Positions 1,999-58,835 of a DNA stretch of 64,000 bases are shown piece after piece. The translations under genes and the position numbers were made by a program. The notes below the pieces were generated by a model. That model was not told where the DNA came from, ran no database searches, and worked only from the letters and a program-made list of their open reading frames with translations. The stretch comes from Octopus sinensis (taxonomy: Eukaryota): NCBI RefSeq assembly GCF_006345805.1, contig NC_043000.1, forward strand, positions 68,758,001 to 68,822,000, in the 5' to 3' direction. Numbering within the stretch: position 1 is the first letter of the stretch; each line of letters starts with the position of its first letter.

Positions 1999-3232
1999 CA
2001 GGGTGTTCCAAAAAATGTATACACACTTTAGCAGCTGATAACTCAATTGATATTTTTTCTTTCCAGATGAAACCTATAGGATTTAATGATGGCAGTCAGA
2101 TTAAGCTTTGAACAAAGAAAATTCATTCTAAAATGATACTGGAAGTGTGAAAATGCAGTTGAAGTGCAAAAACAGTTCGGGAGGGAGTTTCAAACAGATC
2201 CACCAATGCAACTCCCTATCAATTGAATTAGAGATAAGTTTGAAGCTGATGGAACTGTTCAGAATGTCCACGATAAGCATTCCAGAAGACCCCAAACATC
2301 AACAACCCCAACAAAGCAAGGAGTACTGGAAATGAATCACCAAAGTCCAAGAAAATCTGTGCGGCAAAGCGAGTCATGAGGTAGGTATTCCAAAATCATC
2401 TGTCCAATGCATTTTGAAGCATTGTAAATGGAAAAGTTACATTCCAAGATTAGTCCATGCTATTAATGATGATGATCCAGACGAAGAGTGCAGCATTGCG
2501 AGTGGTACTTGGACGATGTGTAGAAGCTGCACACTTTCCAACAAAGATGTGTGGAGTGATGAAGCCACATTCAATTAAATGGTTCAATTAACTGCCACAA
2601 TTTCACCTACTGGGGTCTGAGAATCTGCATGTTATGGTAAACACCATGTTAATTTGATATTTGTGTGCTGTGGTTTATCATCAAGAGGATTAATTGGACC
2701 ATTCTTTTGTTATGCTACTGTGACTGGTCCCGTTACTTGAACTTGTTGCAAACAGTCGGTTTTATGCCAAGCATTAGAGAAGACTTTGAAGATGAGGAGT
2801 TTTATTTTCAGCAAGATGGGGCACCCCCACACTACCATTGCTATGTTAGATCCTTCCTTGATGAGATCTTGCTAAACAGGTGGATTGGATGAAGAGGCAT
2901 GGTTGAATTCACCAGACCTCACATCACTAGACTTTTTATGGGGATACCTTAAAGACAAATTCTACGCTATGAAACCTACAAGTCGCTGATTTGAGAGCAG
3001 CCATTGGACGAGAGTGCACACAAATACCAAACAAATTCTTTTGTGATATTTGTGATTCAATTCTTTGCGTTGTCAGCAGTGCCCGGACCAGACCGGACAT
3101 CAGTTTGAAAACAGGCATTGACAAAAACAATAAAATAATGTCTGTAGATTCTATTAAATTTGAAAATGAAGTGTCTTTAATAAACAACTACTTTACAATT
3201 GTTTAAAGTGTGCATACATTTTTTGGGACACC

Positions 3233-3235
<3 letters not shown>
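1999..3235 (+). mobile_element. Tc1/mariner-superfamily DNA transposon, probably rosa/DD41D group, transposase pseudogenised
   Basis: TIRs cagggtgttccaaaaaatgtatacacacttta / taaagtgtgcatacattttttgggacaccctg followed by TA. Broken ORF from 2089 (MAVRLSFEQRKFILK) with WSDEATF, QQDGAPPH and PDLTSLDF motifs. Confidence 0.9.
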
Positions 3236-3272
<37 letters not shown>

Positions 3273-3273
<1 letters not shown>

Positions 3274-5801
3274 TCAATAAATGGTGGGGTTGTGTTGACC
3301 GCACGTGGAGAAATGAGAAAGATAAGTAGGAAAAATTTTTTTTAAAAATGCAGAATGCTCAAATGAAAGAAATTTTAATAAAATGAGAAAATGAGAAAAT
3401 AATATAAAAAACAAATACATCACCGAAGCCTGCAAACTCTCCATGACATCCACATCAACATCAAAGCACCGGAGGACCTAAAACTAAGGCCCATCGTGGC
3501 TGGTACCCTGTGAAACACACCGCCTGAGTAACTTCCTAGACATCCTTTTGAAACCTTCCTTACCCACATCAAAAGTTTCATTAGGGATGATCGGACATGG
3601 TCAAACACCTCCCGAAAACAGTTAACGAGGAGGCACTCCTGGATATCTTTGAGTCATCAACCTCTACACCAACATTCCACATGAGTATGGTATAGAGGCA
3701 ATTGACTTCTGGCTAGAAAAAACACCCAGAGACATTCCTGACCGCATTAACAAGTCTTTTATTACAGAATCTCTAAGTTCATTCTGACAAACAATTTTTT
3801 CTCTTCGACGAACAACACTACCGTCAAAATGTGGCATTGCGATGGGTACCAAGGCTGGCACCAGTCCTTGCGAACCTCATAATGGGTTACTTCGAACTGT
3901 CACTCTATGAAATATCAAGCCAGAAATTTGGACATGTTTTCCACACCTACCTAATGGAAAACTGGAAAAGGTATTTAGATGATTGTTTCATCATATAGAA
4001 AGAACCTTATGAAAAAACTCCTGGAATTCAAAACCATACTAAACAACATACATCCCAACATCCAATTCACTATGGAATTAAGCAAAAATCATCTCCCATT
4101 CCTTGATCTCCTAATTATAAAAACACCTAAGAACCAAATCATAACAGACATCTACCACAAAACCTACAGACTCACAACAATACCTCCTCTTTAGTTCATG
4201 CCACCCAAAACACACCAAGACAAATATCCCTTTCAATTTAGCTAAAAGGGTATGCACCATTGTCTCGGATCCAAAAACACGAGAAATACGCCTCAAGACC
4301 TCAAAAAAACACTATTACAACGTCAATATCCCTCCACCCTTATAGAGTATGGAATAAAACGCGCCAAAGAACTAGACAACACTACACTGAAAACCACCCA
4401 ACCTAACACCACACACAACCTCAAAATACTTCCATACATTTCCACCCACACCCCAAAAATATCGAAGCATACACCACAATCATACAAAACCTCAGTCTAC
4501 TGTCAACAGACCCAAAAATGAAAAACATTATAAATACACACAAAATCCTCAAATGCAAAAGGCAACACAAATCTTTAAAAAAAACTCTTGACAAATGCCA
4601 ACTTCACCACACCACACCACCCCCAACAGTAAAAAAATGTGCACGCTCAAACTGTGGTACCTGCCCTTTCTACTTGAAGGCTCTGAATTTACCTTCAAAA
4701 AGTACGAAGTTTAAAATCAAGACTAACTTCTCCTGTTCCTCCGAGAACCTTATCTACGTTCTCACATGCGCTGGTTGCCAACATAATTATGTTGGACAAA
4801 CGAGTCTCCCGTTGCGTAAACGAGTAACGGTGCATAAAGAACAAATAAATCTCCCGGATACCGACAAATTCCACTGAGTGACCACTTAGAATCATGTGCT
4901 AAAGACTTAAACCCCAAATTCTATATATTCCCCTTCTACCAATGTAAAGACGGGATCACCACACAGGAGAGAATTAACAAGGAGAATCTCTTTATTGAAA
5001 AATTCCAAACACAACTTAATATGCAAACTCCTCGTTGATCAAACTTCCTTTCTCTCCTCACTCTTCATGGATGGACTAACACAAATATATAAAGATACCA
5101 TGCATTCATCACTTCAAGCTAAAACTTATATTCTTTAAATATCATTTTTACTATTGTTGTTATTACTATCATTTTTATTATAAATGATATGACAATTTGA
5201 AATGCAATTGTCTATGCAGATTTATATTATTAGAAAATAATATAAATAAAGTGTTAAAATCTGAAAGTTAAGTTAACAAGCAATTATATAAAAAAAATAA
5301 TGCAAATGAAGCTAAAATGATAGTTTTATAATTTGGGTTTTATTGAAGAACTCAAAAGAGTTGTCTCCCCTTACTCACAACACAGGAACTGAAGAAAACC
5401 AGGACCACAATTACTACTACTTCCTGTCCTGCAAAACATGCTGGAATTTAACAACACAACACAACACATGCTCTTAATCCCTTTGGATCTTAACACCTCA
5501 AGGTAATTTTTTCGTAAACAACCATAAAACTCAAGATACACAACGAACTCACAATGTATCGGAGAATTTTTTTTAATTTTTGTACATTTTTATCATTATT
5601 CTTTTACAAAAAAACAATGCAATTTTCTTTTTTTTCCCCTTTCTAATTTTTAAAAAAACTTCTTAAAACATAAATATTCTTGACAAGTCATACAATGACG
5701 AAAACCGGTTGAATAAATATATATTTATATATTTTATCATTTTCTCATTTTATTAAAATTTTCTTTCATTTGAGCATTCTGCATTAAAAAAAATTTTTCC
5801 T

Positions 5802-5803
<2 letters not shown>
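3273..5803 (+). mobile_element. Penelope-like retroelement (Neptune-type), 5'-truncated, with inverted 5' pLTR; RT + GIY-YIG pseudogene
   Basis: Frameshifted RT (LRPIVAG, GIAMGT, RYLDD, LPFLD), CxxxxCxxC linker, GIY-YIG (NLIYVLTCAGCQHNYVGQT). 3273-3420 is an inverted copy of the 5730-5803 terminus. Confidence 0.92.
5675..5715 (+). ncRNA. Minimal type I hammerhead ribozyme motif (U3-A8 core variant) in Penelope pLTR
   Basis: tattc-TTGACAA-gtca-tacaa-tgac-GAAA-accggtt-gaata; stems I and II pair; second copy at 41250-41291. Confidence 0.7.
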
Positions 5804-5835
<32 letters not shown>

Positions 5836-5930
5836 CGGGAAGGTTTACGAAAATAAACAAAAGACGAAGGCAGGTGGAGTACAAACAAACAATTGTATTA
5901 GTATGGCGCTCAGGAATAGAAATAAATCAA

Positions 5931-5970
5931 GTCTTTTACGTTTCGAGCCTACGCTCTTCGACAGAAAGAT
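5931..5970 (-). ncRNA. Hammerhead-like ribozyme motif with atypical core (CUGUCGAA)
   Basis: Minus strand: tcttt-CTGTCGAA-gagc-gtag-gctc-GAA-acgt-a-aaaga; stems I and II pair; palindromic stem III. Confidence 0.55.
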
Positions 5971-6364
5971 ACACAGAAAAGAAACAAGGAGAGAGAAAAA
6001 ATGCGTGCAGGAGCTAACGATTGAACATGACGTTCTGATTTCAGCCAGAAGTCAGAGATCATAATGTCGTATGGTGTAGTGTAGTATAGTGTAACGTCGA
6101 GGAGATAAGGGGAGGGGAGAGAGGATATCATGGGGAGAGGGGAGGAGGGGAGGGAGAGGAGAAGGATAGGAGAGAAGAGGAGGGTATAGGAAGAGGGGGA
6201 TGGGAAAGGAGGGGAGAGGAGGAGGAGGGGAAGGAGATGGGGAGGAGGAGAGAAGGGGAGTGAGGGAGCAGAGAGAAAGAGAGAAGGGGAAGAGGGAAGA
6301 GGAGGGAAAGAGAGTAGGGGTGAAAAGATGAAGGACTGAAGAGAAGTAGGAGTCGGGGGGGAGG

Positions 6365-7735
6365 TTAGATGAAAAGTGGGGGAGAGTTGAGACCAAATGG
6401 CTTAAAAGAGCGAAGAGAGAAGATTAATCCCTGTTCACGGCACAAGCGGGAATCCGGATGACCTCTGTGCAAGGACAATCCGAACACAGACAGGCGTTGC
6501 AAGGTGTGACAGGTGGAGCGGTATTGGCGTGAGACCGGTGTGTCATTGGCAAGGCGGATGTCACGGAGGTGTTCCGCGAACCGGTCAGCCAAGCGGCGTC
6601 CCGTTTGTCCGATGTACAGGGAATGGCAGAGAGAGCAGGAGATGCAATAGATGATATTGCTGGAGGTGCAGGTGAAGGAGTTGATGATGCGATAGGGTCG
6701 ATGATGGGTGCCAGTGAGGAGGGTGGTGTTGGAGAGGTAAGGGCAAGTGCGGCAACGTGAGCGGGAGCAGGGGAATGAGCCAGGTTGAGAGGCAGGGTCA
6801 GGGAAGAAGCTGTGGACCAAGAGGTCTCGTAGGTTATGGGCTCGTTTGAAGGAGGGGAGGGGTCGGTTAGGGAAGAGGTGTGATTTGGACGGGTCGGACT
6901 GGAGATGCCGGAAAGCTCGAAGAATGGTGCGTTGGAGAGGTAGGGTGGTGGGGTGGTAAGTGAGGGGAAAAGGGAGGCGGGAGACTGCAGGGCGGGTTCG
7001 GGGGGAGAGAGCAGATGCACGGTCTACGGAACGTGCTCTGGCAAGGGTGGTGTGGATAGTGGTGAGGAGGTATCCACGTAGGATGAAGTGGCGAGCCATG
7101 AGTTGAGACTGAGTCTCAAAGTCATGGTCGTCACTACAGAGCCTACGTAGACGGAGGAATTGGGAATAGGGGATGGAAAGCTTGGTGTGTTTGGGGTGGG
7201 AGGAAGAGAAGTTTAGGTATGAGTGTGAGTCTGTGTGTTTGTAGTAAATGGAGGTGGTAAGAGTGGAGTGATGAATGCTGACCGAAATGTCGAGGAAGGA
7301 GACAGAAGTGTTGGAGATAGTGGAGGTGAAGTGGAGGGTAGGATGGAAGGATTGAACGAAAGAGAGGAAGGAATCTAGATGTTCACGGGAGAGTGAGGTG
7401 GCACCGATAATGTCGTCAATGTAACGACCGTATAGTTCGGGAGTGGGACCAGTGAAACAAGAGAATATTTGGGCCTCACCATAGCCAACGAACAGGTTCG
7501 CATAGTTGGGGCCCATTCGCGTTCCCATGGCCACTCCCGAGAACTGTTGGTAGAACTCGCTCGCGACGGCCAGACGAATGAGTGTGGAGGTGTCGGGTTC
7601 GGGGTTGGGGCGGAGGTCGAGAAAGTGTTGAAGTGCCCGCAGTCCTTCGTGGTGAGGGATGACGGTATAGAGGTTCTGGATGTCCATTGTAAAAAGTATT
7701 TTGGAGGAGCCGGGAGGAAAGGAGAAAGAGTTATG
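6365..7735 (-). CDS. 5'-truncated Penelope RT (C-terminal part) + Cys linker + GIY-YIG endonuclease reading frame
   Basis: LFTMDIQNLYT, SGVAMGTRMGPNYANLF, YGRYIDD, VSFLD, CSRSRCRTC, NIIYCISC..LYIGQT; lacks RT N-terminus and has a short in-frame deletion after LIRLA. Confidence 0.85.
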   Translation of the reverse strand, partial: HNSFSFPPGSSKILFTMDIQNLYTVIPHHEGLRALQHFLDLRPNPEPDTSTLIRLAVASEFYQQFSGVAMGTRMGPNYANLFVGYGEAQIFSCFTGPTPELYGRYIDDIIGATSLSREHLDSFLSFVQSFHPTLHFTSTISNTSVSFLDISVSIHHSTLTTSIYYKHTDSHSYLNFSSSHPKHTKLSIPYSQFLRLRRLCSDDHDFETQSQLMARHFILRGYLLTTIHTTLARARSVDRASALSPRTRPAVSRLPFPLTYHPTTLPLQRTILRAFRHLQSDPSKSHLFPNRPLPSFKRAHNLRDLLVHSFFPDPASQPGSFPCSRSRCRTCPYLSNTTLLTGTHHRPYRIINSFTCTSSNIIYCISCSLCHSLYIGQTGRRLADRFAEHLRDIRLANDTPVSRQYRSTCHTLQRLSVFGLSLHRGHPDSRLCREQGLIFSLRSFKPFGLNSPPLFI

Positions 7736-7736
7736 C

Positions 7737-7767
7737 ATATATATGTATATATATATATATATATAAT

Positions 7768-7811
<44 letters not shown>

Positions 7812-7888
7812 ATCATATATATAAGATATATATATAGTATATATTATATACATATAGATATATATATATATAATATATATATATATAT

Positions 7889-7952
<64 letters not shown>
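7737..7952. repeat. (TA)n microsatellite
   Basis: Direct inspection. Confidence 0.95.
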
Positions 7953-7955
<3 letters not shown>

Positions 7956-8062
7956 CGGGAAGCTTTATGAAAATAAACAAAAGACGAAGGCAGGTGGAAA
8001 ACAAACGAACAATTGTATTAGTATGGCGCTCAGGAAATATAAATAAAACAAGTCTTTAATTG

Positions 8063-8104
<42 letters not shown>

Positions 8105-8139
8105 ACATACATATACTATATTATATATATATATTATAG

Positions 8140-9444
8140 TCATCTGCTACAAAGGTAGCGGAAACTGGAGATTGACGACTGGTTAATAAGGGCTGTACAG
8201 GCCCTTTACAGAGAGGCTGTTAGTAAGGTAAGTATTGACAATGAGTATAGTGAAGAATTCCGGGTAGAAGCTGGCGTCCACCAAGGCTCAGCCCTCAGTC
8301 CCCTTCTATTCATCATAGTCCTCCAGGTAATAACAGAGGAATTCAAGACGGGTTGCCCTGGGAGGTCCTCTATGCTGATGACCTAGCCCTCGTAGTAGAA
8401 TCACTACCGGAACTAGAGAAGAAATTTCGTATGTGGAAGCTAAGTTAGAATCAAAAGGCCTTAGTGTCAATGTAGCAAAGACCAAAGTTCTAGTAACTAG
8501 GAAGGCAAACTCACCACACACCCCTTTAGGTAGGTGGCCCTGCTCGATCTTTAGAAAAGGTGTAGGTAGAAACTCCATAAGATGTACCCAGTGTAAGCTA
8601 TGGACACATAAGAGGTGCAGCAACATCAAAGAAAAATTAACCGAGAAGATAGCTTTCGTGTGCGACAGATGCACAGGGGCAATAGACACTATTGATACTC
8701 AAACAAAAGATTCCATTACACTCCTGGGGAAGAAACTAGAAGTAGTTGATAGTTTCTGCTACCTAGGTGAGCAAGTTAGTAGTGGGGATGGATGCTCAGA
8801 GAGTGTTACCATTAGAATAAGAATAGCCTGGGCAAGGTTTAGGAAGCTTTTTCCCCTACTGGCGACAAAGGGTCTCTCGCTCAGAGTGAAAGGTAGATTG
8901 TACGACGCATGTGTGCGAACTGCCATGCTTCACGGCAGTGAAACATGGGCCGCGACTGCGGAGGACATGCGTAGGCTCGAAAGAAATGAAGCTAGCATGA
9001 TCTGCTGGATGTGTAATGTCAGTGTCCATGCACGACAGTGTTAGCGCCCTGAGAGAAATGTTGGGCATAAGAAGCATTCGGATGCAGCGTGCAGGAGAGA
9101 CGTTTGCGTTGGTATGGACATGTGCTACGGATGGATGAGGAGAGATGTTTTTTAAGAAGTGCCACTCCCAAACTGTTGAAGGAATCCGGGGTAGAGGTAG
9201 ACCCAGTAAGACATAGGACGAGGTGGTCAAGCATGACCTTCGTACCTTCAGCCTCACAGAGGCTATGACGAAAGACAGACCTCTGGAGATATGTTGTGAC
9301 TTCGAAGACCTGACAATGAAGTGAGTTCATGGCTTGCAGGACGGCCTGCTGTGCTTGAGGAGACCTATTGTGTCAAGTCCATCAACATCAAAATAAAATT
9401 CGTATGGATATTGTAGTTGTGATACCCGTGCTGGTGGCACGTAG
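8140..9444 (+). mobile_element. RTE-clade LINE, 5'-truncated, degenerate RT C-terminus and start of 3' UTR
   Basis: GVHQGSALSPLLF, LYADDL, GLSVNVAKTKVL, YLG, LHGSETW, GRGRP motifs, with a Cys-rich (PHD-like) insert. Confidence 0.9.
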
Positions 9445-9445
9445 C

Positions 9446-9965
9446 GCCTCACAGAGGAAATGACGAAGACCGAGACTTCTGAGATATGCTGTGACTATGA
9501 AGACCCGACAAATGAAGTGAGTTCAAGGCTCGCAGGACGGCCTGCTGTACTAACCTTGGATCGTAGAGTGACACGCTGTGGAGACCTATTGAGTCAAGTA
9601 CGTCAACACCAACATCAAAATGAAAATCAAATGGAAATTGTAAAGATACCCGTGCGGGTGACACGTAAAAAGCACCATCCGAACGTGACAGGTGCCAGCG
9701 CCGCCTGACTGGCGTCCGTGTCGGTGACACGTAAAAGCACCAACCGATCGTGGCAGTTTGCCAGCCTCCTCTGGCCCCTGTGCCAGTGGCACGTAAAAAG
9801 CACCCACTACACTCACGGAGTGGTTGGCGTTAGGAAGGGCATCCTGCTGTAGAAACACTGCTAGATCAGACTGGAGCCTGGTGCAGCCTCCTGGCTTCCC
9901 AGACCCTGGCCGAACCGTCCAACCCATGCTAGCATGGAAAACGAACGTTAAACGATGATGATGAT
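9446..9965 (+). mobile_element. Second RTE 3' end (ORF tail + 3' UTR with ggcacgtaaaaagcacc repeats, (GAT)n tail)
   Basis: 9446-9665 is a diverged duplicate of 9251-9444; ends in aacgttaaacgatgatgatg. Confidence 0.85.
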
Positions 9966-9978
9966 ATATATGATATAC

Positions 9979-10045
<67 letters not shown>

Positions 10046-10115
10046 GCATCTATATATATTATATACATATATATATGTATATATATATGTATGTATATAT
10101 ATATATATGTATATA

Positions 10116-10206
<91 letters not shown>

Positions 10207-10250
10207 ATTATATATATTATATGTATTCTACATATATATATCATATATAT
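9965..10250. repeat. (TA)n microsatellite
   Basis: Direct inspection. Confidence 0.95.
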
Positions 10251-11975
10251 CGGCGACGATAGATTACATCGATATAAAGGAAGACGATGTAATAAAGGCT
10301 ATAGATGAAATGAAAACAGACTCAGCTACTGGCCCCGATGGATTCCCGGCAATCCTCCTAAAAGTATGTAAGAGAGTCCTAGCAAGACCACTGCAGTTCC
10401 TCTTTCAGAGCTTCCTTGCAGCTGGCAAACTTCCAAGAAAACTGAAGGAAGGTAAAATATGCCCTATTTATAAAGGAGGTAGCAGAGCGGAGGCCAAGAA
10501 CTACAGACCTATCTCTCTGACCTCACACATCAGCAAGGTCATGGAACGAATAGTCAGAAGGAAACTGATCACCTTCCTTGAAGAAAATGACTTGCTGCCT
10601 GACACCCAACATGGTTTCCGACCAGGAAGAAGCTGCTTAACTCAGCTCCTACAACACTATGACTGGGTGCTGAAACGACTGCTCAACCACTCAAATGTGG
10701 AAGTGATATATCTCGACTTTGCAAAGGCCTTTGATAAAGTCGATCATGGAATAATATGTCACAAACTGCGTGATTTTAGCATAGTTGGAAAACTGGGAGA
10801 ATGGCTACATGACTTTCTGAAAGATAGGAGTCAGGTGGTAGTAGCCAATGGGGCCACTTCCATTAACACGCAAATAGTGAGCGGTGTTCCGCAGAGCACT
10901 GTTTTGAGACCACTACTGTTCATAATGGCCCTCTCAGACATGCCCTCAGCCACGCAGAGAGCCACGATCACAAGTTATGCAGATGATACAAAAGTTTTAC
11001 AGGCAATACAGAACCCTGAGGACACTAAACGCCTGCAATGTGAGCTGGACAAAATATACAAGTGGGCTGAAAAGAATAGCATGCAGTTCAATGCTGAAAG
11101 TTTCAAGCTTTATGCTATCAGCATGCAAAACTAAATGCAATACCCAATGAATACATAGGACCCGGAGGAATTGCAATCCCAGAGGCACAATCAGTGCGTG
11201 ACCTGGGTATTTACATGAGTGATGACGCAACCTTTCGTGTACATGTTGCTAAATTGGCAATGAAATGTAGACGACTGGCCGGATGGATTCTCAGAACCTT
11301 TAGAACAAGAGAACAAGAAACCATGATGGTCCTCTGGAGGACACTCGTACTAAGCCACTTTGACTATTGCTCTCAGCTATGGTCACCATCAAGTGTCAAG
11401 TTGATCACAGAACTTGAGGCGATCCAACGTAGCTACACGAAGAAGATAGCCTCTGTGCAGAATATAAGCTACTGGGAAAGACTCAAGAGATTAAAACTCT
11501 ATTCCTTGGAGTGTAGGCGAGAAAGATATGCCATAATATATATCTGGAAGATCCTGGAAGGACTTGTCCCAAACTTTGGCATCGAGAGTTACACAAATGC
11601 CAGAACTGGGCGCCACTGCGTGGTGCCTAGGACTCCAAATTTGCCATCAAGATGTAGGACAAGATTCTGTGATAGCCTGGGCTTCCGAGGCCCACAGCTC
11701 TTCAATATCCTCCCGAAGAACCTAAGAGACCTGCATGGGGTGGATGCAGATGTCTTTAAAATGAAACTGGATCTCTTCTTGTCAGGTATCCCAGATGAAC
11801 CAACTTCACGGCAGGAGGTGCAGATGAGGGCAGCTGCATCGAACTCTCTCATGCACCAAATGGCAGTTGCTAAAAAGCATTCGTGAAGTAAAACCATGTA
11901 GTAACACCAAATGGCGGTGCCCCAGCATGGCCACAGCTCGTGAGCTGAAACTAGAATCAATCAATCAATCAATCA
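10251..11975 (+). mobile_element. CR1/L2-group LINE, 5'-truncated ORF2 (RT) with one frameshift and (ATCA)n tail
   Basis: ATGPDG, NYRPISLTS, QHGFRPGRSC, YLDFAKAFDKVDH, SGVPQ, YADD, RDLG, DYCSQLWSP; tail aatcaatcaatc at 11955-11975. Confidence 0.93.
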
Positions 11976-11984
11976 TATAACCAA

Positions 11985-12562
11985 ATCAAATCAGATATCA
12001 GAAAGCAGAACCAAAATCGAAGTCGACCAACATCAATGGAAATTGCAGCTGTGATACCAGTGCCGGTGACAAGTAAGCGAACCATCCGATGGTGACCGTT
12101 GCCAGCGCCGCCCCGACTGGCCTCCGTGCCGGTGGCACGTAAAAAGCACCATCCGTTCGTGGCCGTTGCTAGCCTCGCCTGGCCCCCGTGCCGGTGGCAC
12201 GTAGCACCATCCGTTCGTGGCCGTTGCCAACCTCGCCTGGCCCCCGTGCCGGTGGCACGTAAAAAGCTCCATCCGATTGTGGCCGTTGCCAGCCTCGCCT
12301 GGCCCCTGTGCAGGTGGCACGTAAAAAGCACCATCCGTCCGTGGCCGTTTGCCAGCTCTGTCTGGCACCTGTGCGGGTGGTACGTAAAAAGCACCCACTA
12401 CACTCACGGAGTGGTTGGCGTTAGGAAGGGCATCCAGCCGTAGAAACACTGCCAGATCAGACTGGGCCTGATGCAGCCTTCTGGCTTCACAGACCCCAGT
12501 TGAACCGTCCAACCCATACTAGCATGGAAAGCGGACGCTAAATGATGATGATGATGATGATA
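11985..12562 (+). mobile_element. Truncated RTE 3' UTR copy with internal ~55-60 bp tandem array
   Basis: About six units containing ggtggcacgtaaaaagcacc-atccg; same (GAT)n-tailed end as 9780-9965. Confidence 0.85.
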
Positions 12563-33291: not shown

Positions 33292-34368
33292 CCCTTTCGA
33301 TACCAAACCACCCAAAACCACCCGAAAAAAATTTTGGTTAATGTGACCAAACCGCCCAAAGCCACCCGAATTTACCTATTCATATTTAAATGAGAATATC
33401 AGAGCAAATCTCTTTAGTACATTCGTGAAAATACGTATTATACTTCGTAAACAGTTCAACTACAGTTTTGTACAAAAATCGAAGTCTAATTTTAATTCCG
33501 TGAATTTTGGGAGATTTTTTTCCGAAATTTGTTCCTATTGTGTTTTCAAAATTTGTAATTCTGACAAAAAATGGATACAAATTTCATTATATCAAGCAGC
33601 GAGTCAGAATTCGAAGGATTTTCTACTGAAGACCTTCATAAATCTAACTCTATGACTGAAAAAAAAAAGCACGTGGTATTTGATAATGAATCTGATGTTT
33701 CATTTTCCGAAAGTGAAAACAGTGAATCCGAGAGCTCCGACAGCGATAAAGAAAATGAATTGGCACCAGAATAGAGTGAAAATTTAAAAACTGTTTCTTT
33801 CGGTGATTTTTCTGAAGAAACTGGACCAAGCCACAGACTTTCCCAGAAGAGTAAAGCCTTAGACTATTTCTTTTTCGAATGAGCCTATTTGAAATCATTA
33901 CGGCGGAAACGAACCGTTACGCTAAATGTAAACAAAACGAAAGAAAGGATACTTTGTGGTTTCCCACAATCTTAAATGAAATTAAGGCTTATTTTGCCAT
34001 AAATATTATGGGTATCAGAAAGTTACCCAGAATAACAAATTCTATAGTAAAATTTTGTTGTATACCCAATTGAATATTAGCTAATAACCCATTTTCTATA
34101 GCGATGTTTGAACAAAATTTTAATAATTTTATATTTTGTTGAATTTACCTGTATCTACCTGCAATTAGAGTCACTTTGTGACAAAAATTATAGTATAGAA
34201 TTGGTTGAGAACATTTCATTAAATTATCTTCCAAAATTCACGTTAATATATTGATAAATAAAAAAGTTATAGTTGTTTAATGAAACCAGACTAAATTTAT
34301 GATTACGTTAGAAATTAATTGAAACACATAAGGGGTGTATTTTGGTCAGAAATATAGTAACGAAAGGG
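33292..34368 (+). mobile_element. Internally deleted non-autonomous piggyBac, copy 1
   Basis: TTAA TSD, ccctttcg.tac TIRs, acidic N-terminus SSSESEFEGFS, FEIITAETNRYA, EIKAYFAINIMGIRKLP. Confidence 0.92.
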
Positions 34369-34579
34369 TTAAGAACGATTTGTAAAATTTCATTTTATTG
34401 GTTTAAATCAATAAAAAAACTGAGATTAAAAAAAAAACAATAAGTTCACACAGTCAGTATTTGGTTGGGTATCCAAAATTACTTAATACAGCTTTGCATC
34501 TGTGAAACATAGAATTGTTCAGATCATTAATTGTCACTGTTCCTGAGATTTTTTCCTAGTTTTGGCTAATAATGTTTAA

Positions 34580-41096: not shown

Positions 41097-42355
41097 ATCA
41101 ATAAATGGTGGGGTTGTGTTGACCGCACATGGAGAAATGATAAGCAAGGAAAAATTGTAAAAAGGCAGAATGCTAAATTGAAAGAAAATTTTAATGAAAA
41201 TGGGTGTATGGAAAATTTTTTGGAAAAATTGGTAAAATATATATATATTAATTCAAACCGGTTTTCGTCATAATGTGACTTTTCAAGAATTGTAAAGAAA
41301 AGAAATTTTTTTAAGTGTGAGGAGGTGGAAAAAAAGAAAATTACATTGTTTTTTGCAAAAAAATAATAAATATATATAAAAATTAAAAAATAGGTACTCC
41401 GATACATTGTAAAGTCTTTGTGTATCTTGAGTTTAATGATTGTTCACGAAAAAATTACCTTGAAGTATTGAGATCCAATGGGATTAAATCCATGTGTTGT
41501 TTAATTTAATTAAGGGTGTCTCTTAAGTGCATGGCAAAACAGGAAATAGTAGTAGTAGTAGTCCAGTTCCTGTGTTGTGAATAAGGGGAGACAACTCTAT
41601 GGGTTTTAAGCTCTTCAATTTGTGTTTATCAATTTTTTGTAATAAAGGGTGTTAATAAACCTTAAATTATAAGATTATCATTTTAGCTTCATTTGCATTA
41701 TCTTTTTTATATAATTGTTTGCTAATTTAGCATTCAGATTTTAACACTTTATTTATATTGTTTTCTAATTATATAAATTTGCATAAACCAATTTATAATT
41801 ACATTTCAGATTGTTATGTCATATATAATAAAAATAATAATAATAATAATAACAACAATAATAATAATGATATTTAAAGAATATAAGTTTTAGCTTGAGG
41901 TGATGACTGCATGGTATCCTTATATATTTGTGTTAGTCCATCCATGAAGAATGAGGTAGAAAAAAGAAGTATGATCAACAAGGAGTTTGCATATTAAGAT
42001 GCGTTTTGAATTTTCAATAAAGAGATTCTTCTTGTTAATTCTCTCCTGTGTGGTGATTCCGTCTTCACATTGGTAGAAGGGGAATATGTAGAATTTGGGA
42101 TTTCTGTCTTTAGCGCATGAGTCTATGTGGTCACTCAGTGGGATTTGCCGGTATTCCGGGAGATTTATTTGTTCTTTATGCACCGCTACTCTTTTACGTA
42201 ACGGGAGGCTCGTTTGTCCAACATAATTATGTTGGCAACCAGCGCATGTGAGAACGTAGATAAGGTTCTCGGAGGAACAGGAGAAGTTGGTCTTGATTTT
42301 AAACTTCGTTCCTTGTTTGAAGATAAATTCAGAGCCTTCAAGTAGGAAGGGGCGC
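41097..42355 (-). mobile_element. Penelope-like element, 3' part (GIY-YIG + pLTR), same family as 3273-5803
   Basis: NLIYVLTCAGCQHNYVGQT; same terminus atcaataaatggtggggttgtgttgaccgcac; abuts (TA)n. Confidence 0.92.
41250..41291 (-). ncRNA. Minimal type I hammerhead ribozyme motif (U3-A8 core variant)
   Basis: Minus strand: aattc-TTGAAAA-gtca-catta-tgac-GAA-aaccggtt-t-gaatt. Confidence 0.75.
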
Positions 42356-44738: not shown

Positions 44739-45162
44739 CTGGCACAGAAGCCAGTTAACTGCCAGAGCAGCTAACTGGCTTCTGTGCCAGTGGCATATAA
44801 AAAGCACTATTCGAGCATGATCGTTACCAGCATTGCCTTACTGGCGCTTGTACTGGTGGCACGTGAAAAAACATTCAAGCCAGGTTGTTGCCAGTGTCGC
44901 TGGACTACCTCTTGTGCAGGTGGCACATAAAAAACACTATTTGAGCGTGGCCATTGCCAGTAACACCTGACTGGTCCTCGTGCCGCTGGCATGTAAAAGC
45001 ACCCACTACACTCTCAAAGTGGTTGGCATTAGGAAGGGCATCCAGCTGTAGAAACTCTGCCAGATCAAGATTGGAGCCTGGTGCAGCCATCTGGTTCGCC
45101 AGTCTCAGTCAAATCATCCAACCCATGCTAGCATGGAAAGCAGACGTTAAACAATGATGATT
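44739..45162 (+). mobile_element. RTE 3' UTR copy (CpG-decayed) with 5' inverted duplication
   Basis: ggca(c/t)(g/a)taaaaagcac units and (GAT)n end; hairpin at 44739-44790. Confidence 0.85.
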
Positions 45163-45208
45163 ATATATATATATATAAATATAGATAGATAGAGAGAGAG
45201 AGAGGCAG

Positions 45209-51247: not shown

Positions 51248-51420
51248 GTAAAAAGCACCCACTACACTCACGGAGTGGTTGGCATTAGGAAGGACATCCA
51301 GCTGTAGAAACACTGCCAGATCAGACTGGAGCCTGGTGCAGCCTCCTGGTTTCCCAGACCCCAGTTGAACCATCCAACCCATGCTAGTATGGAAAACAGA
51401 CGTTAAACGATGATGATGAC
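51248..51420 (+). mobile_element. RTE 3' tail fragment
   Basis: gtaaaaagcacccactacactcacggagtggttggc...cgttaaacgatgatgatg. Confidence 0.85.
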
Positions 51421-55796: not shown

Positions 55797-57770
55797 ACTG
55801 TACTCTATATATTACAAGTGCAAATACATGCTTCATTACACACATATGCCTATGTTACTATTTCTCGATAGTAATAATTATAATAACAGATACAAGGAAA
55901 GCTCGATGGACTTCCTCGTGACCTCTCCACTTCTGACACTAATTTATAAATTAATTACTATTTGTTAGAATTGAATTATATCTTCAATTATTTCCTGTAA
56001 AAGCCCATTGTATACAACAGGTGAGTTATATCTCCTGTGTTTTTACAATCTACTTAGATCATACTGAAAAGTTGTATATGAGTGCCTTGGGTTGAAGAAA
56101 CTTAAAACCTTTTTCATTTATTTCCTTTTTAACTAAACCATGCCTAAAGGAAGAGGTTACCACCATCCTGTATTCTATAAACTGAATGAAAAGAAAGGAA
56201 GAGCTAAACATCTTATATTAAGAATTTTTATAAGAAACTATTCCTTGGATAATAATATCATGTATTATACGATTGTCTGTAGCAGGTGCCATGTATAGGC
56301 ATTATGTGTTTGCCTATTGATACTCTTCCACTAATAATAGAATTGAAAGATGGTACAATTTTTATATATACAAAATCAGCATTGTAAAAACTTAAAATTA
56401 GTTTTTTTAGAAAAATGCATTTTTACTCCCCCTTTTTTTTATACCTGAACTATGAAATGTGTTTGGTGATTTTCTTTTGTACTTTACCTTAAAGCAATAA
56501 GATTACTTTAGACATTGAAGAGATTCTAAAACTAGTTGAGTTTATACCTCAGTAAAACATTGTAATATAATGCTGCAGAGACTTCCTGTTGATCTTTACC
56601 TTAGGTTAACTCTATGTTAACCTAAAAAGAAAACCTCTATGTTATCACTTAACCTACTAGAAATAGCAACCAAGTCTCCTTCAAATGACGTGTATTCAGA
56701 ATAATGTATCCTTGAATACAATATACCTTTAAAAAAAAAAAAAGACTGGATGATCATGGCTCCAACTTCTTTGATTATAAGATTGCTGAATCAGGACTGA
56801 CCTAGAGCTAAACAAGTAGATGTATGTTTAAAAGTACTACAGCCATGTAATGAAATGCATGATAAGTGCTATAAATCAATAGATCAACAGGAGTTGGAGA
56901 AACTTTGAATAATTTCTCATGCCATATGTATTAAGCAAGTCAACGGAATAGGGCTTATATCCTTCTCTAATCTGAATCTAAAGGCAGAGTTCATCTTACA
57001 ACTGTAAGCTGTTGAAATACTCATCAAATCTGTAATGCTGCTGCTGTTTCACTAGATTTTAATTCTCTGGAACAGTTTGGCCAAAGATGCAAAGCACTGA
57101 TACCTACTGTGTGTATGCAAGTATATATAAATATGTTTCTGTGTGTGTGTTAGTGAGTGAGTGAGTGTGTGTAAGTATACTTACAAATGTGTATAAATAA
57201 ATGCACGTATACAATTGTATGTGTGTGCATGTAGATCTCATCTTTATTATCATTATAATCATTTTAAAACTCTCTTTCTATGCTGACATAGGTCAGTTAC
57301 TGTTAAACAGAATTCATTACATTAGAGGACCATGTCTTGCTCTAGTGTTACTGTTTTGGTATGGTGTTGTGCTTTATTCATGGCACAAACACAGATGAGA
57401 TTGCCTTGTAATTTGCAAGATTAACAAACTTGCCTGAGAGGAAGAATTGGAGATAGGATGGTTGCTTTATGTGTGATGGGAAAAATAGGAACAAATAGGT
57501 TTGTTGTGGAGGAAATTCATGACTACTTTGCATTTCACATGGTTGGGTGGCATGGGTATCTCCTCATTAAGAGAGGTAAATATGGTGGTGACAAGATGCC
57601 AGAACACACCCTTAAGGTAACATGTCTAAAAAGTGAAGAGAAGGGAGCATGGAAACAGGAGAACCACATTGCAAGAGTGTGAGGAGAGAATGAGAAGTGG
57701 ATATAAGCATGGAGTGGAAATGGTCATATGTATATAAACAGTGAGTGTAGTGGATGGTGAATAGAATTAA

Positions 57771-58835
57771 CCCTTTCGTTACTATATTTCTGACCAAAAT
57801 ACACCCCTTATATGTTTCAATTAATTTCTAACGTAATCATAAATTTAGTCTGGTTTCATTAAACAACTATAACTTTTTTATTTATCAATATATTAACGTG
57901 AATTTTGGAAGATAATTTAATGAAATGTTCTCAACCAATTCTATACTATAATTTTTGTCACAAAGTGACTCTAATTGCAGATAGATACAGGTAAATTCAA
58001 CAAAATATAAAATTATTAAAATTTTGTTCAAACATCGCTATAGAAAATGGGTTATTAGCTAATATTCAATTGGGTATACAACAAAATTTTACGATAGAAT
58101 TTGTTATTCTGGGTAACTTTCTGATACCCATAATAATATTTATGGCAAAATAGTCTTAATTTCATTTAAGGTTATGGGAAACCACTTTCTTTCGTTTTGT
58201 TTACATTTAGCATAACGGTTCATTTCCGCCATAATGATTTCAAATAGGCTCATTCGAAAAAGTAAAAAGAAATAGTCTAAGGCTTTACTCTTCTGAGAAA
58301 GTCTGTGGTTTGGTCCAGTTTCTTCAGAAAAATCACCGAAAGAAACAGTTTTTAAATTTTCACTCTATTCTGGTGCCAATTCATTTTCTTTATCGCTGTC
58401 GGAGCTCTCGGATTCACTGTTTTCACTTTCGGAAAATGAAACATCAGATTCATTATCAAATACCACATGCTTTTTTTTTTCAGTCATAGTTAGATTTATG
58501 AAGGTCTTCAGTAGAAAATCCTTCGAATTCTGACTCGCTGCTTGATATAATGAAATTCGTATCCATTTTTTGTCAGAATTACAAATTTTGAAAACACAAT
58601 AGGAACAAATTTCGGAAAAAAATCTCCCAAAATTCACGGAATTAAAATTACACTTCGATTTTTGTACAAAACTGTAGTTGAACTGTTTACGAAGTATAAT
58701 ACGTATTTTCACGAATGTACTAAAGAGATTTGCTCTGATATTCTCATTTAAATATGAATAGGTAAATTCGGGCGGTTTTGGGCAGCTTGGTCACATTAAC
58801 CAAAACTTTTTTCGGGCGGTTTGGTAACGAAAGGG
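57771..58835 (-). mobile_element. Internally deleted non-autonomous piggyBac, copy 2 (inverted relative to copy 1)
   Basis: TTAA-ccctttcgttac...gtaacgaaaggg-TTAA; near-identical to 33292-34368, including the deletion junction. Confidence 0.93.

What the first reader, a model, noticed from the sequence alone, without database searches (positions are those of the whole stretch)
5931..8058. Atypical hammerhead-like core (CUGUCGAA), with a second terminus copy starting exactly at the predicted cleavage site
Seen (minus strand): stem I ucuuu/aaaga, core CUGUCGAA (A6 to U plus an extra A), stem II gagc/gcuc, GAA, palindromic ACGU, predicted cut GUA^aaagac. The upstream pLTR copy (7953-8057) matches the downstream terminus only up to aaagac and stops there (plus strand gtcttt|aattg vs gtcttt|tacgtttcg), exactly at the predicted cut. 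Inference: the RNA template's 5' end was made by self-cleavage, so this unusual core may be active.
Basis: partly seen in the sequence, partly recalled or inferred. Interest (0 to 1): 0.7.

Follow-up and report, generated by a model that had tools for sequence, protein, structure and literature searches.

The report
Penelope hammerhead with family-wide U6 core
A very abundant family of Penelope-like jumping genes in this animal carries a small hammerhead-shaped RNA motif in which a normally invariant core adenine is replaced by uridine throughout the family; it likely still cuts itself slowly, but the neighbouring short copy that seems to start at the predicted cut is only a coin-toss as proof.

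Summary
On the minus strand a 5'-truncated, decayed Neptune-type Penelope-like element (ORF 7735-6368) ends in a minimal type I hammerhead-like motif (5969-5932) and a 102-nt tail. The extra A and the ACGU palindrome are standard for these motifs; only A6-to-U is unusual. U6 is not a private mutation. In 44,275 contigs from four runs (four species labels), position 6 shows no other letter at 2% or more, while neighbouring N7 takes all four letters. An unrelated contig (L001) has the same U6 core with a different, fully paired stem I. I found no natural U6 core in print, but could not read the key 2017 survey. The copy at 7955-8057 is a separate tail-only insertion, not this element's pLTR. Its end lies at the cut or 2 nt before it (about even odds), and no truncation peak was visible in this family. 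In a related family, 3 of 36 short insertions start at or one base before the cut, but 24 start at the motif's 5' edge. Cleavage is untested. Verdict: new variant of a known kind.

The parts
6368..7735 (-). 5'-truncated ORF of a Neptune-type Penelope-like element: C-terminal part of the RT, CxxxxCxxC linker, GIY-YIG-type endonuclease. Decayed: 10-residue in-frame deletion in the RT and loss of one conserved His in the endonuclease.
   Evidence: ORF; RVT_1 E 2.4e-6, below the Pfam cut-off, no GIY-YIG call on this protein; 411 homologs, best 50-54% identical, several with PF01541; alignment A1
5970..6367 (-). 3' untranslated region: pyrimidine-rich stretch, then the start of the pseudo-LTR region upstream of the hammerhead motif
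   Evidence: sequence; this copy departs from the family majority from about 6021 onward (table 3)
5932..5969 (-). Minimal type I hammerhead-like motif with core CUGUNGA (U at position 6, window 5961; N7 at 5960), extra A, 4-bp stem II, palindromic stem III stub, 4-5-bp stem I
5936..5937 (-). Predicted self-cleavage site, after GUA (A17 = 5937)
   Evidence: inferred from hammerhead numbering; not shown to be cut
5835..5936 (-). 102-nt tail 3' of the predicted cut; its 3' end abuts a (TA)n target and likely marks the internal start of reverse transcription
   Evidence: both copies end at the same base; analogy to the Anolis element, where RT starts 85-92 nt 3' of the cut (computed from positions in PMC11167929)
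7955..8057 (-). Solo tail-only copy, a separate insertion in the TA microsatellite. 5' end at the predicted cut (8057) or 2 nt before it (8059).
   Evidence: (tables 3 and 7)
8058..8065 (-). 8 junction bases between the solo copy and the next (TA)n. The first two match a U17 subtype; 7 of the 8 also match a palindromic word inside the tail.
7736..7954 (.). Degenerate (TA)n tract between the truncated element and the solo copy; further (TA)n at 5806-5834 and from 8066
   Evidence: sequence

Best explanation
This is a minimal hammerhead-like motif with a family-wide U at core position 6 in the end module of a Neptune-type Penelope-like retrotransposon, and it likely works as a slow, dimer- or protein-assisted self-cleaving ribozyme. 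Shown: the motif, its place between ORF and tail, the fixation of U6 and the freedom of N7. Inferred: the element's RT starts internally about 102 nt 3' of the cut, primed at a nicked (TA)n target. Most cDNA is made from uncut RNA and gives ordinary 5'-truncated copies such as 5835-7735. A minority of templates has been cut, so the cDNA runs off at the new 5' end and inserts as a tail-only stub. The copy at 7955-8057 is an independent stub that has about even odds of being such a run-off product. This locus holds one full motif only, so it could not form the dimer in cis.
For: (1), four runs (X1, X2, X5, X6; four species labels, four studies; 14,521, 14,519, 9,581 and 5,654 contigs laid at 80% or more): no A>T, A>G or A>C change at 5961 reaches 2% in any run. 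(2) The motif is a depth island: hundreds of contigs match only 5929-5968 and run on unlike (loose ends 377, 370, 292, 240 before 5929; 305, 356, 231, 200 behind 5968), so diverged relatives keep the motif with U6 and not the flanks. (3) L001, the one match in the metagenome collection, has the U6 core, and its stem I, which was not in the pattern, pairs over 6 bp with different letters. (4) On four motifs from four families, 8 of 9 pairs change on both sides and 94% of cells pair; 0 of 500 shuffles reach this and slid controls give 21-60%. (5) In a related family (G001, about 50% protein identity), 3 of 36 short insertions start at or one base before the cut, among them L050, a tail-only insert with a 13-bp target duplication; P = 0.027 against all 36, 0.002-0.005 against the 12 outside the main cluster. 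(6) Natural A6C hammerheads still cut slowly (PMC3088659, PMC7151607), and the Anolis PLE hammerhead cuts only with its protein (PMC11167929).
Against: No cleavage assay exists for U6. Changes in the CUGA turn gave low activity in a mutational scan (PMC9901934, passage), and A6C cost several orders of magnitude in Mg2+ (PMC7151607). In this family one search shows no place where many molecules end (table 6) and no loose-end row at 5936/5937 among the 24 shown (556 hidden), and depth rises rather than falls across the cut. The solo copy's rare insertion is shared with X5 contigs that read U at position 17, which would put its end 2 nt before the cut. U17 is under 2% of depth overall and the number of contigs long enough to show it is not given. 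In G001 the main class (24 of 36) starts at -50 to -28, at the motif's 5' edge, not at the cut; that family has another core (C4, A6); the range for the smaller P values was chosen after seeing the data. Frangieh et al. found no RNA reads ending at the cut and no need for cleavage in vitro. Contigs were recruited by likeness to a U6 reference, so a distant A6 sister family would be under-counted.
Confidence: 0.6

Rival explanations
1. The motif is real and selected, but the solo copy is an ordinary 5' truncation of a U17 subtype that stops two or more bases before the cut, so it says nothing about cleavage.
For: table 7: the X5 loose end (12 contigs, agreement 1) is identical to 8038-8059, two bases past the cut. 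No peak at the cut is visible. Junctions at -10, -11, -15 and -21 occur in G001.
Against: Two A's after the junction would arise by chance about one time in ten at the window's base composition (A 0.32). U17 is under 2% of depth at 5937 in all four runs. Exact-cut stubs exist in the related family (L050).
Confidence: 0.5
2. The U6 motif no longer cuts and is kept as a folded RNA signal (for example for binding the element's protein) or as part of the promoter or initiator region.
For: A6 is in all cores read in the 56-motif alignment of PMC4209133 Fig. S3 and its change is damaging in vitro (PMC3088659, PMC7151607, PMC9901934). Cleavage was dispensable for insertion in vitro (PMC11167929). Short copies in G001 start mostly at the motif's 5' edge, 36 nt downstream of the start of a TATA-like box.
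Against: The conservation pattern is the catalytic one: N7 free, G8, G12, A13, A14, A15.1-U16.1 and an H at 17 kept apart from low-level changes, most at CpG sites. Both stems covary across families. A DNA-level element would not need stem I complementarity in L001.
Confidence: 0.3
3. A6-to-U is a private mutation in one dead copy of a canonical minimal hammerhead.
For: The copy is truncated and its ORF carries lesions.
Against: No A at position 6 at 2% or more in any of four runs. The same core occurs in L001.
Confidence: 0.02

Closest known systems
Minimal hammerheads (min-HHR) of metazoan Penelope-like elements (Cervera and de la Pena 2014, PMC4209133; main text parts 1-2 of 4 and supplement file 2 parts 1-2 of 3 read)
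   Same: Type I layout, short stem I, extra nucleotide between 9 and 10.1, G10.1-C11.1, palindromic 15.2-16.2 without stem III, place in the pLTR behind the ORF. The Neptune motif listed there for Acropora digitifera has nearly the same stem II.
   Different: U at position 6. Their consensus is CUGANGAH; every core read in their Fig. S3 has A6, the only core variant being U3-A8.
Poseidon element PAc of Anolis carolinensis (Frangieh et al. 2024, PMC11167929; parts 1-2 of 4 read)
   Same: Hammerhead followed by a tail whose end marks internal RT initiation (85-92 nt after the cut there, 102 nt here); AT-rich targets.
   Different: Core described as conserved (C3 and G8 tested; its letters not read here); motif overlaps the ORF start; no RNA ends seen at the cut; no tail-only stubs reported in the parts read.
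Natural A6C hammerhead of phage Bcep176 (Perreault 2011, PMC3088659, passages; Naghdi 2020, PMC7151607, parts 1-2 of 4)
   Same: A natural change at core position 6 that is tolerated; slow cleavage, better in Mn2+.
   Different: C, not U; a single phage example, not a variant fixed across a high-copy retroelement family.
Neptune clade of EN+ Penelope-like elements (Craig et al. 2021, PMC8557442, passages)
   Same: RT, Zn-finger-like linker, C-terminal GIY-YIG; 5' truncation, tail, microsatellite targeting.
   Different: Clade assignment here rests on the linker motif, on homologs and on motif likeness; no tree was built.

Membership tests
PLE minimal hammerhead (min-HHR) | Core C3 U4 G5 A6 N7 G8 A9 | tested here: not met
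   Position 6 is U in the window and in over 98% of depth in four runs; hence filed as a variant, not as a canonical member
PLE minimal hammerhead (min-HHR) | Extra nucleotide between 9 and 10.1; G10.1-C11.1 pair | tested here: met
   A at 5957; G5956-C5945
PLE minimal hammerhead (min-HHR) | G12 A13 A14 A15.1, palindromic 15.2-16.2, U16.1 H17 | tested here: met
   5944-5937
PLE minimal hammerhead (min-HHR) | Stems I and II with covariation | tested here: met
   8 of 9 pairs change on both sides across four families; within the family only low-level changes that keep pairing at the stem II closing pair
PLE minimal hammerhead (min-HHR) | Lies in the terminal repeat behind a PLE ORF | tested here: met
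   about 400 nt behind the stop codon, followed by the repeated tail
PLE minimal hammerhead (min-HHR) | Self-cleavage as a dimer or with protein | not testable with these tools
   Two copies can pair through the palindrome in a cofold, which shows no activity
Rfam hammerhead families | Match to a curated covariance model | tested here: inconclusive
   No hammerhead match in window 3000-12000, but none either for canonical minimal motifs in L005 and L009
Neptune-type EN+ Penelope-like element | RT followed by C-terminal GIY-YIG endonuclease in one ORF | tested here: met
   Weak RVT_1 match; endonuclease by aligned motifs and by PF01541 on homologs; Pfam did not call it on this protein
Neptune-type EN+ Penelope-like element | Zn-finger-like CX2-5CxxC linker | tested here: met
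   C323, C328, C331 in alignment A1; Nematis and Naiad share such a linker
Neptune-type EN+ Penelope-like element | Phylogenetic placement in the Neptune clade | not tested
Neptune-type EN+ Penelope-like element | Partial tandem forming a 5' pLTR | tested here: not met
   The upstream copy lacks the motif, is separated by (TA)n and carries other family alleles; this is a truncated copy, not a complete element

The most novel reading that the evidence does not exclude
CUGUNGA is an active natural hammerhead core, fixed by selection in a high-copy Penelope-like family and present in other animals, and tail-only 'strong-stop' inserts that begin at the cut are a genomic fossil record of in vivo cleavage by Penelope ribozymes.
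Probability: 0.35. Interest if true: 0.72.

Novelty: new variant of a known kind. Interest (0 to 1): 0.5.

Why it matters
A6 is counted among the invariant hammerhead nucleotides and is part of the standard core consensus, so descriptor searches built on that consensus would miss a family-wide U6 core in any number of copies. If it cuts, it widens the natural sequence space of the best-studied ribozyme and offers a test of protein- or metal-assisted rescue. Separately, whether Penelope hammerheads cut in cells is an open question (PMC4209133, PMC11167929). Counting 5' junctions of genomic stubs at the cut versus at the motif's 5' edge makes it testable from assemblies alone.

Tried and rejected
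No RNA holder listed. Rfam: no hammerhead match, uninformative by control. Folding energy against shuffles: no signal. Viral contigs: no match to the motif pattern, the tail pattern or the protein. A U6 pattern in G001 gave 3 matches against 6 for the control, so none. A second PLE family in G001 (L005) gave too few short copies to test; two began at +10 and +20. Rejected: that the extra A is atypical; that the upstream copy is this element's pLTR; that U6 is decay. Rows left out of the G001 tally: copies extending upstream of -50, fragments starting at +73 and +94 and beyond, second arms of inverted insertions, L078 and L079 (no match); L081-L089 and L070/L075 were each counted once (same flanks). 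Only 40 of 93 candidates were scored; pattern searches added others but not all were fetched. Literature: no paper held 'hammerhead ribozyme' + 'catalytic core' + 'A6U'; by title and abstract start, none of the 20 listed of 56 hits for hammerhead plus CUGUNGA-type words concerns a natural core; one search returned only Frangieh 2024. Lunse et al. 2017 (about 150,000 PLE-associated variants, recalled) is not held and may already list U6; supplement file 1 of PMC4209133 could not be searched and figures were not seen. 'Octopus' was my guess at the host from memory and was not tested.

Full report
What is there. The window is animal-type DNA rich in TA microsatellites and retroelement fragments. 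On the minus strand an ORF runs from 7735 to 6368. It gives a weak RT match below the Pfam cut-off and has 411 homologs, the best 50-54% identical, several carrying GIY-YIG hits. The alignment shows RT motifs, a CxxxxCxxC linker and a C-terminal endonuclease, plus a 10-residue deletion and one lost His. It is a 5'-truncated, decayed Penelope-like element of Neptune type; the clade call rests on the linker and on motif likeness, not on a tree.

Check of the motif. Stems I and II are predicted with pair probabilities of 0.75 to 1.0, although the fold is not more stable than shuffles. A strict descriptor with position 6 left free finds this single site in the window and none in 300 shuffles. Rfam does not match it, but it also misses canonical minimal motifs in L005 and L009. 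Cervera and de la Pena (PMC4209133; main text parts 1-2, supplement file 2 parts 1-2) list the extra nucleotide after A9, the G10.1-C11.1 pair and the palindromic 15.2-16.2 as common traits of Penelope minimal hammerheads. So the only unusual feature is U at position 6.

Is U6 a lesion or a trait? I laid contigs of four runs (four species labels, four studies; 4 of the 24 runs listed) on 5827-6126 at 80% likeness: 14,521, 14,519, 9,581 and 5,654 contigs. Position 6 (5961) has no row of other letters. Position 7 next to it takes all four letters (U 31-46%, C 23-41%, A 20-24%, G 7-13%). That is the known hammerhead pattern, N7 being the free position, and it shows that a mismatch at this spot does not stop recruitment. 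The other listed changes in the motif are low (up to 8% at 5933, 5939, 5940, 5944, 5948, 5953; up to 18% at the outer stem I base 5969) and lie mostly at CpG sites; a C>T at a core G cannot be excluded in X1 and X2. Depth peaks over the motif, and hundreds of contigs match only 5929-5968 and then run on unlike, so diverged relatives share the motif and not its flanks. Depth here is summed contig depth, not a copy number. Recruitment by likeness would under-count a distant sister family with A6.

An independent occurrence. A pattern with the U6 core and stem II found one match in the metagenome collection, L001. One match of 21 fixed letters in so large a collection could be chance, but stem I was not in the pattern and it pairs over 6 bp with letters unlike the window's, and base 17 is a C. 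Aligned with two motifs from G001, 8 of 9 pairs change on both sides, 94% of cells pair, 0 of 500 shuffles reach that, and slid controls give 21-60%. One of the four motifs (L005) was picked by a scan that asked for pairing.

The upstream copy. 7955-8057 matches the tail with 8 differences in 103 columns. Four of them (5879, 5880, 5919, 5927) are alleles that segregate in the family at 17-86% of depth, and about 220 nt of TA repeat separate it from the truncated ORF. It is therefore most likely a separate tail-only insertion, not the pLTR of this element. Against the downstream copy it stops exactly at the predicted cut. However, 12 contigs of run X5 share its rare one-base insertion and give a loose-end consensus identical to 8038-8059, which continues into the palindrome with U at base 17 (table 7). 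If the copy came from that subtype, it ends 2 nt before the cut. U17 is under 2% of depth overall, the number of contigs that reach it is not given, and two A's would occur by chance about one time in ten. I put the odds that this copy is a run-off from cut RNA at about one half; this is a judgement, not a computed value.

In this family one search shows no place where many molecules end, and none of the 24 loose-end rows shown lies at 5936/5937 (556 hidden). Depth rises across the cut, though relatives that match only the motif confound this. A large peak is unlikely; a small one cannot be excluded.

A related family as a stand-in. A protein search of genome contigs returned nine loci, eight of them in one 12-Mb assembly, G001, that holds animal-type DNA. 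One family there (about 50% protein identity) has a motif nearly identical to the Neptune motif printed for Acropora in PMC4209133 Fig. S3, but with C at position 4 in 44 of 51 matches, some of which may be the same copy fetched twice. I mapped the 5'-most end of each short insertion. Of 36 events, 24 start at -50 to -28 from the cut, five simple junctions exactly at the first base of stem I, 36 nt downstream of the start of a TATA-like box; I read this as the transcript start (inference). Three start at or one base before the cut: L050, a tail-only insert with a 13-bp target duplication, and the inverted junctions L053 and L068. P is 0.027 against all 36 events and 0.002-0.005 against the 12 outside the cluster, a range chosen after seeing the data. 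So run-off at the cut appears to happen, as a minority class. Earlier notes of this scan on other genomes also describe starts at the motif's edge with at most a mild excess at the cut; these are unchecked and not counted as support.

How it most likely works. Shown: anatomy, family-wide U6, free N7, paired stems. From the literature: in the Anolis element the RT starts inside the RNA, 85-92 nt after the hammerhead cut, at AT-rich nicks; the ribozyme cuts only with the protein; cutting is not needed in vitro and no RNA reads ended at the site (PMC11167929, parts 1-2). Inferred for this family: RT starts 102 nt after the cut on a (TA)n nick. Uncut RNA gives most copies. Cut RNA gives tail-only stubs, or, if ligated or bridged, longer copies. 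The U6 core is expected to be slow: natural A6C cuts at under 0.1 per minute and prefers Mn2+ (PMC3088659 passages, PMC7151607 parts 1-2), and CUGA changes gave low activity in a mutational scan (PMC9901934 passages). Slow cutting fits a cycle that needs mostly intact RNA. The rival, a conserved but non-cutting signal, stays at about 0.3.

Novelty. Minimal hammerheads in Penelope pLTRs, tails and microsatellite targeting are known. A natural U6 core did not turn up or in the supplement parts read, and a genomic excess of 5' ends at the cut did not turn up. The 2017 survey by Lunse et al. could not be read and may hold U6. Verdict: new variant of a known kind, interest 0.5; most novel reading at probability 0.35, interest 0.72 if true.

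Noticed in passing
window 3653-5800 (+) and 42351-41148 (-): A second, distant Penelope-like family, tail to tail with the finding's element across the (TA)n at 5806-5834. Both copies (80% identical) carry a hammerhead-like motif with a U3-A8 core (at 5675-5713 + and near 41291 -) and a compensatory change in stem I. U3-A8 is published.
   Followed up: partly
G001, loci L003, L011-L056, L067-L080: Neptune-type family whose minimal hammerhead has C at core position 4 in 44 of 51 matches, where the published Acropora motif has U; tails end at about +65 or +120; many inverted insertions join at short palindromes at -38 and +4.
   Followed up: partly
L050:321-442 (-): Tail-only insertion that begins exactly at the predicted hammerhead cut and is flanked by a 13-bp target duplication.
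   Followed up: yes
L001:1494-1535 (-): U6-core minimal hammerhead-like motif in an unrelated animal-type contig; whether a Penelope ORF lies nearby was not examined.
   Followed up: partly
L081-L089: A 57-nt piece of the G001 tail (from +8) embedded in another repeat with identical flanks in nine loci.
   Followed up: no
window 8160-9330 (+) and about 10250-11886 (+): Two non-LTR retrotransposon fragments: one with a PHD-finger match, one with a clear RT match.
   Followed up: no
window 9637-9964, 12111-12555, 44769-45163, 51248-51419: A dispersed repeat with short tandem units of about 62 bp followed by a common 172-nt end (families D13, D14, D16).
   Followed up: no
window 33315-34372 and 57767-58822: About 1 kb present twice in inverted orientation at 98-99% identity, 23-25 kb apart; a young mobile element or its termini.
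   Followed up: no
G001: A record titled as a bacterial MAG holds many contigs of animal-type DNA with Penelope-like elements.
   Followed up: no
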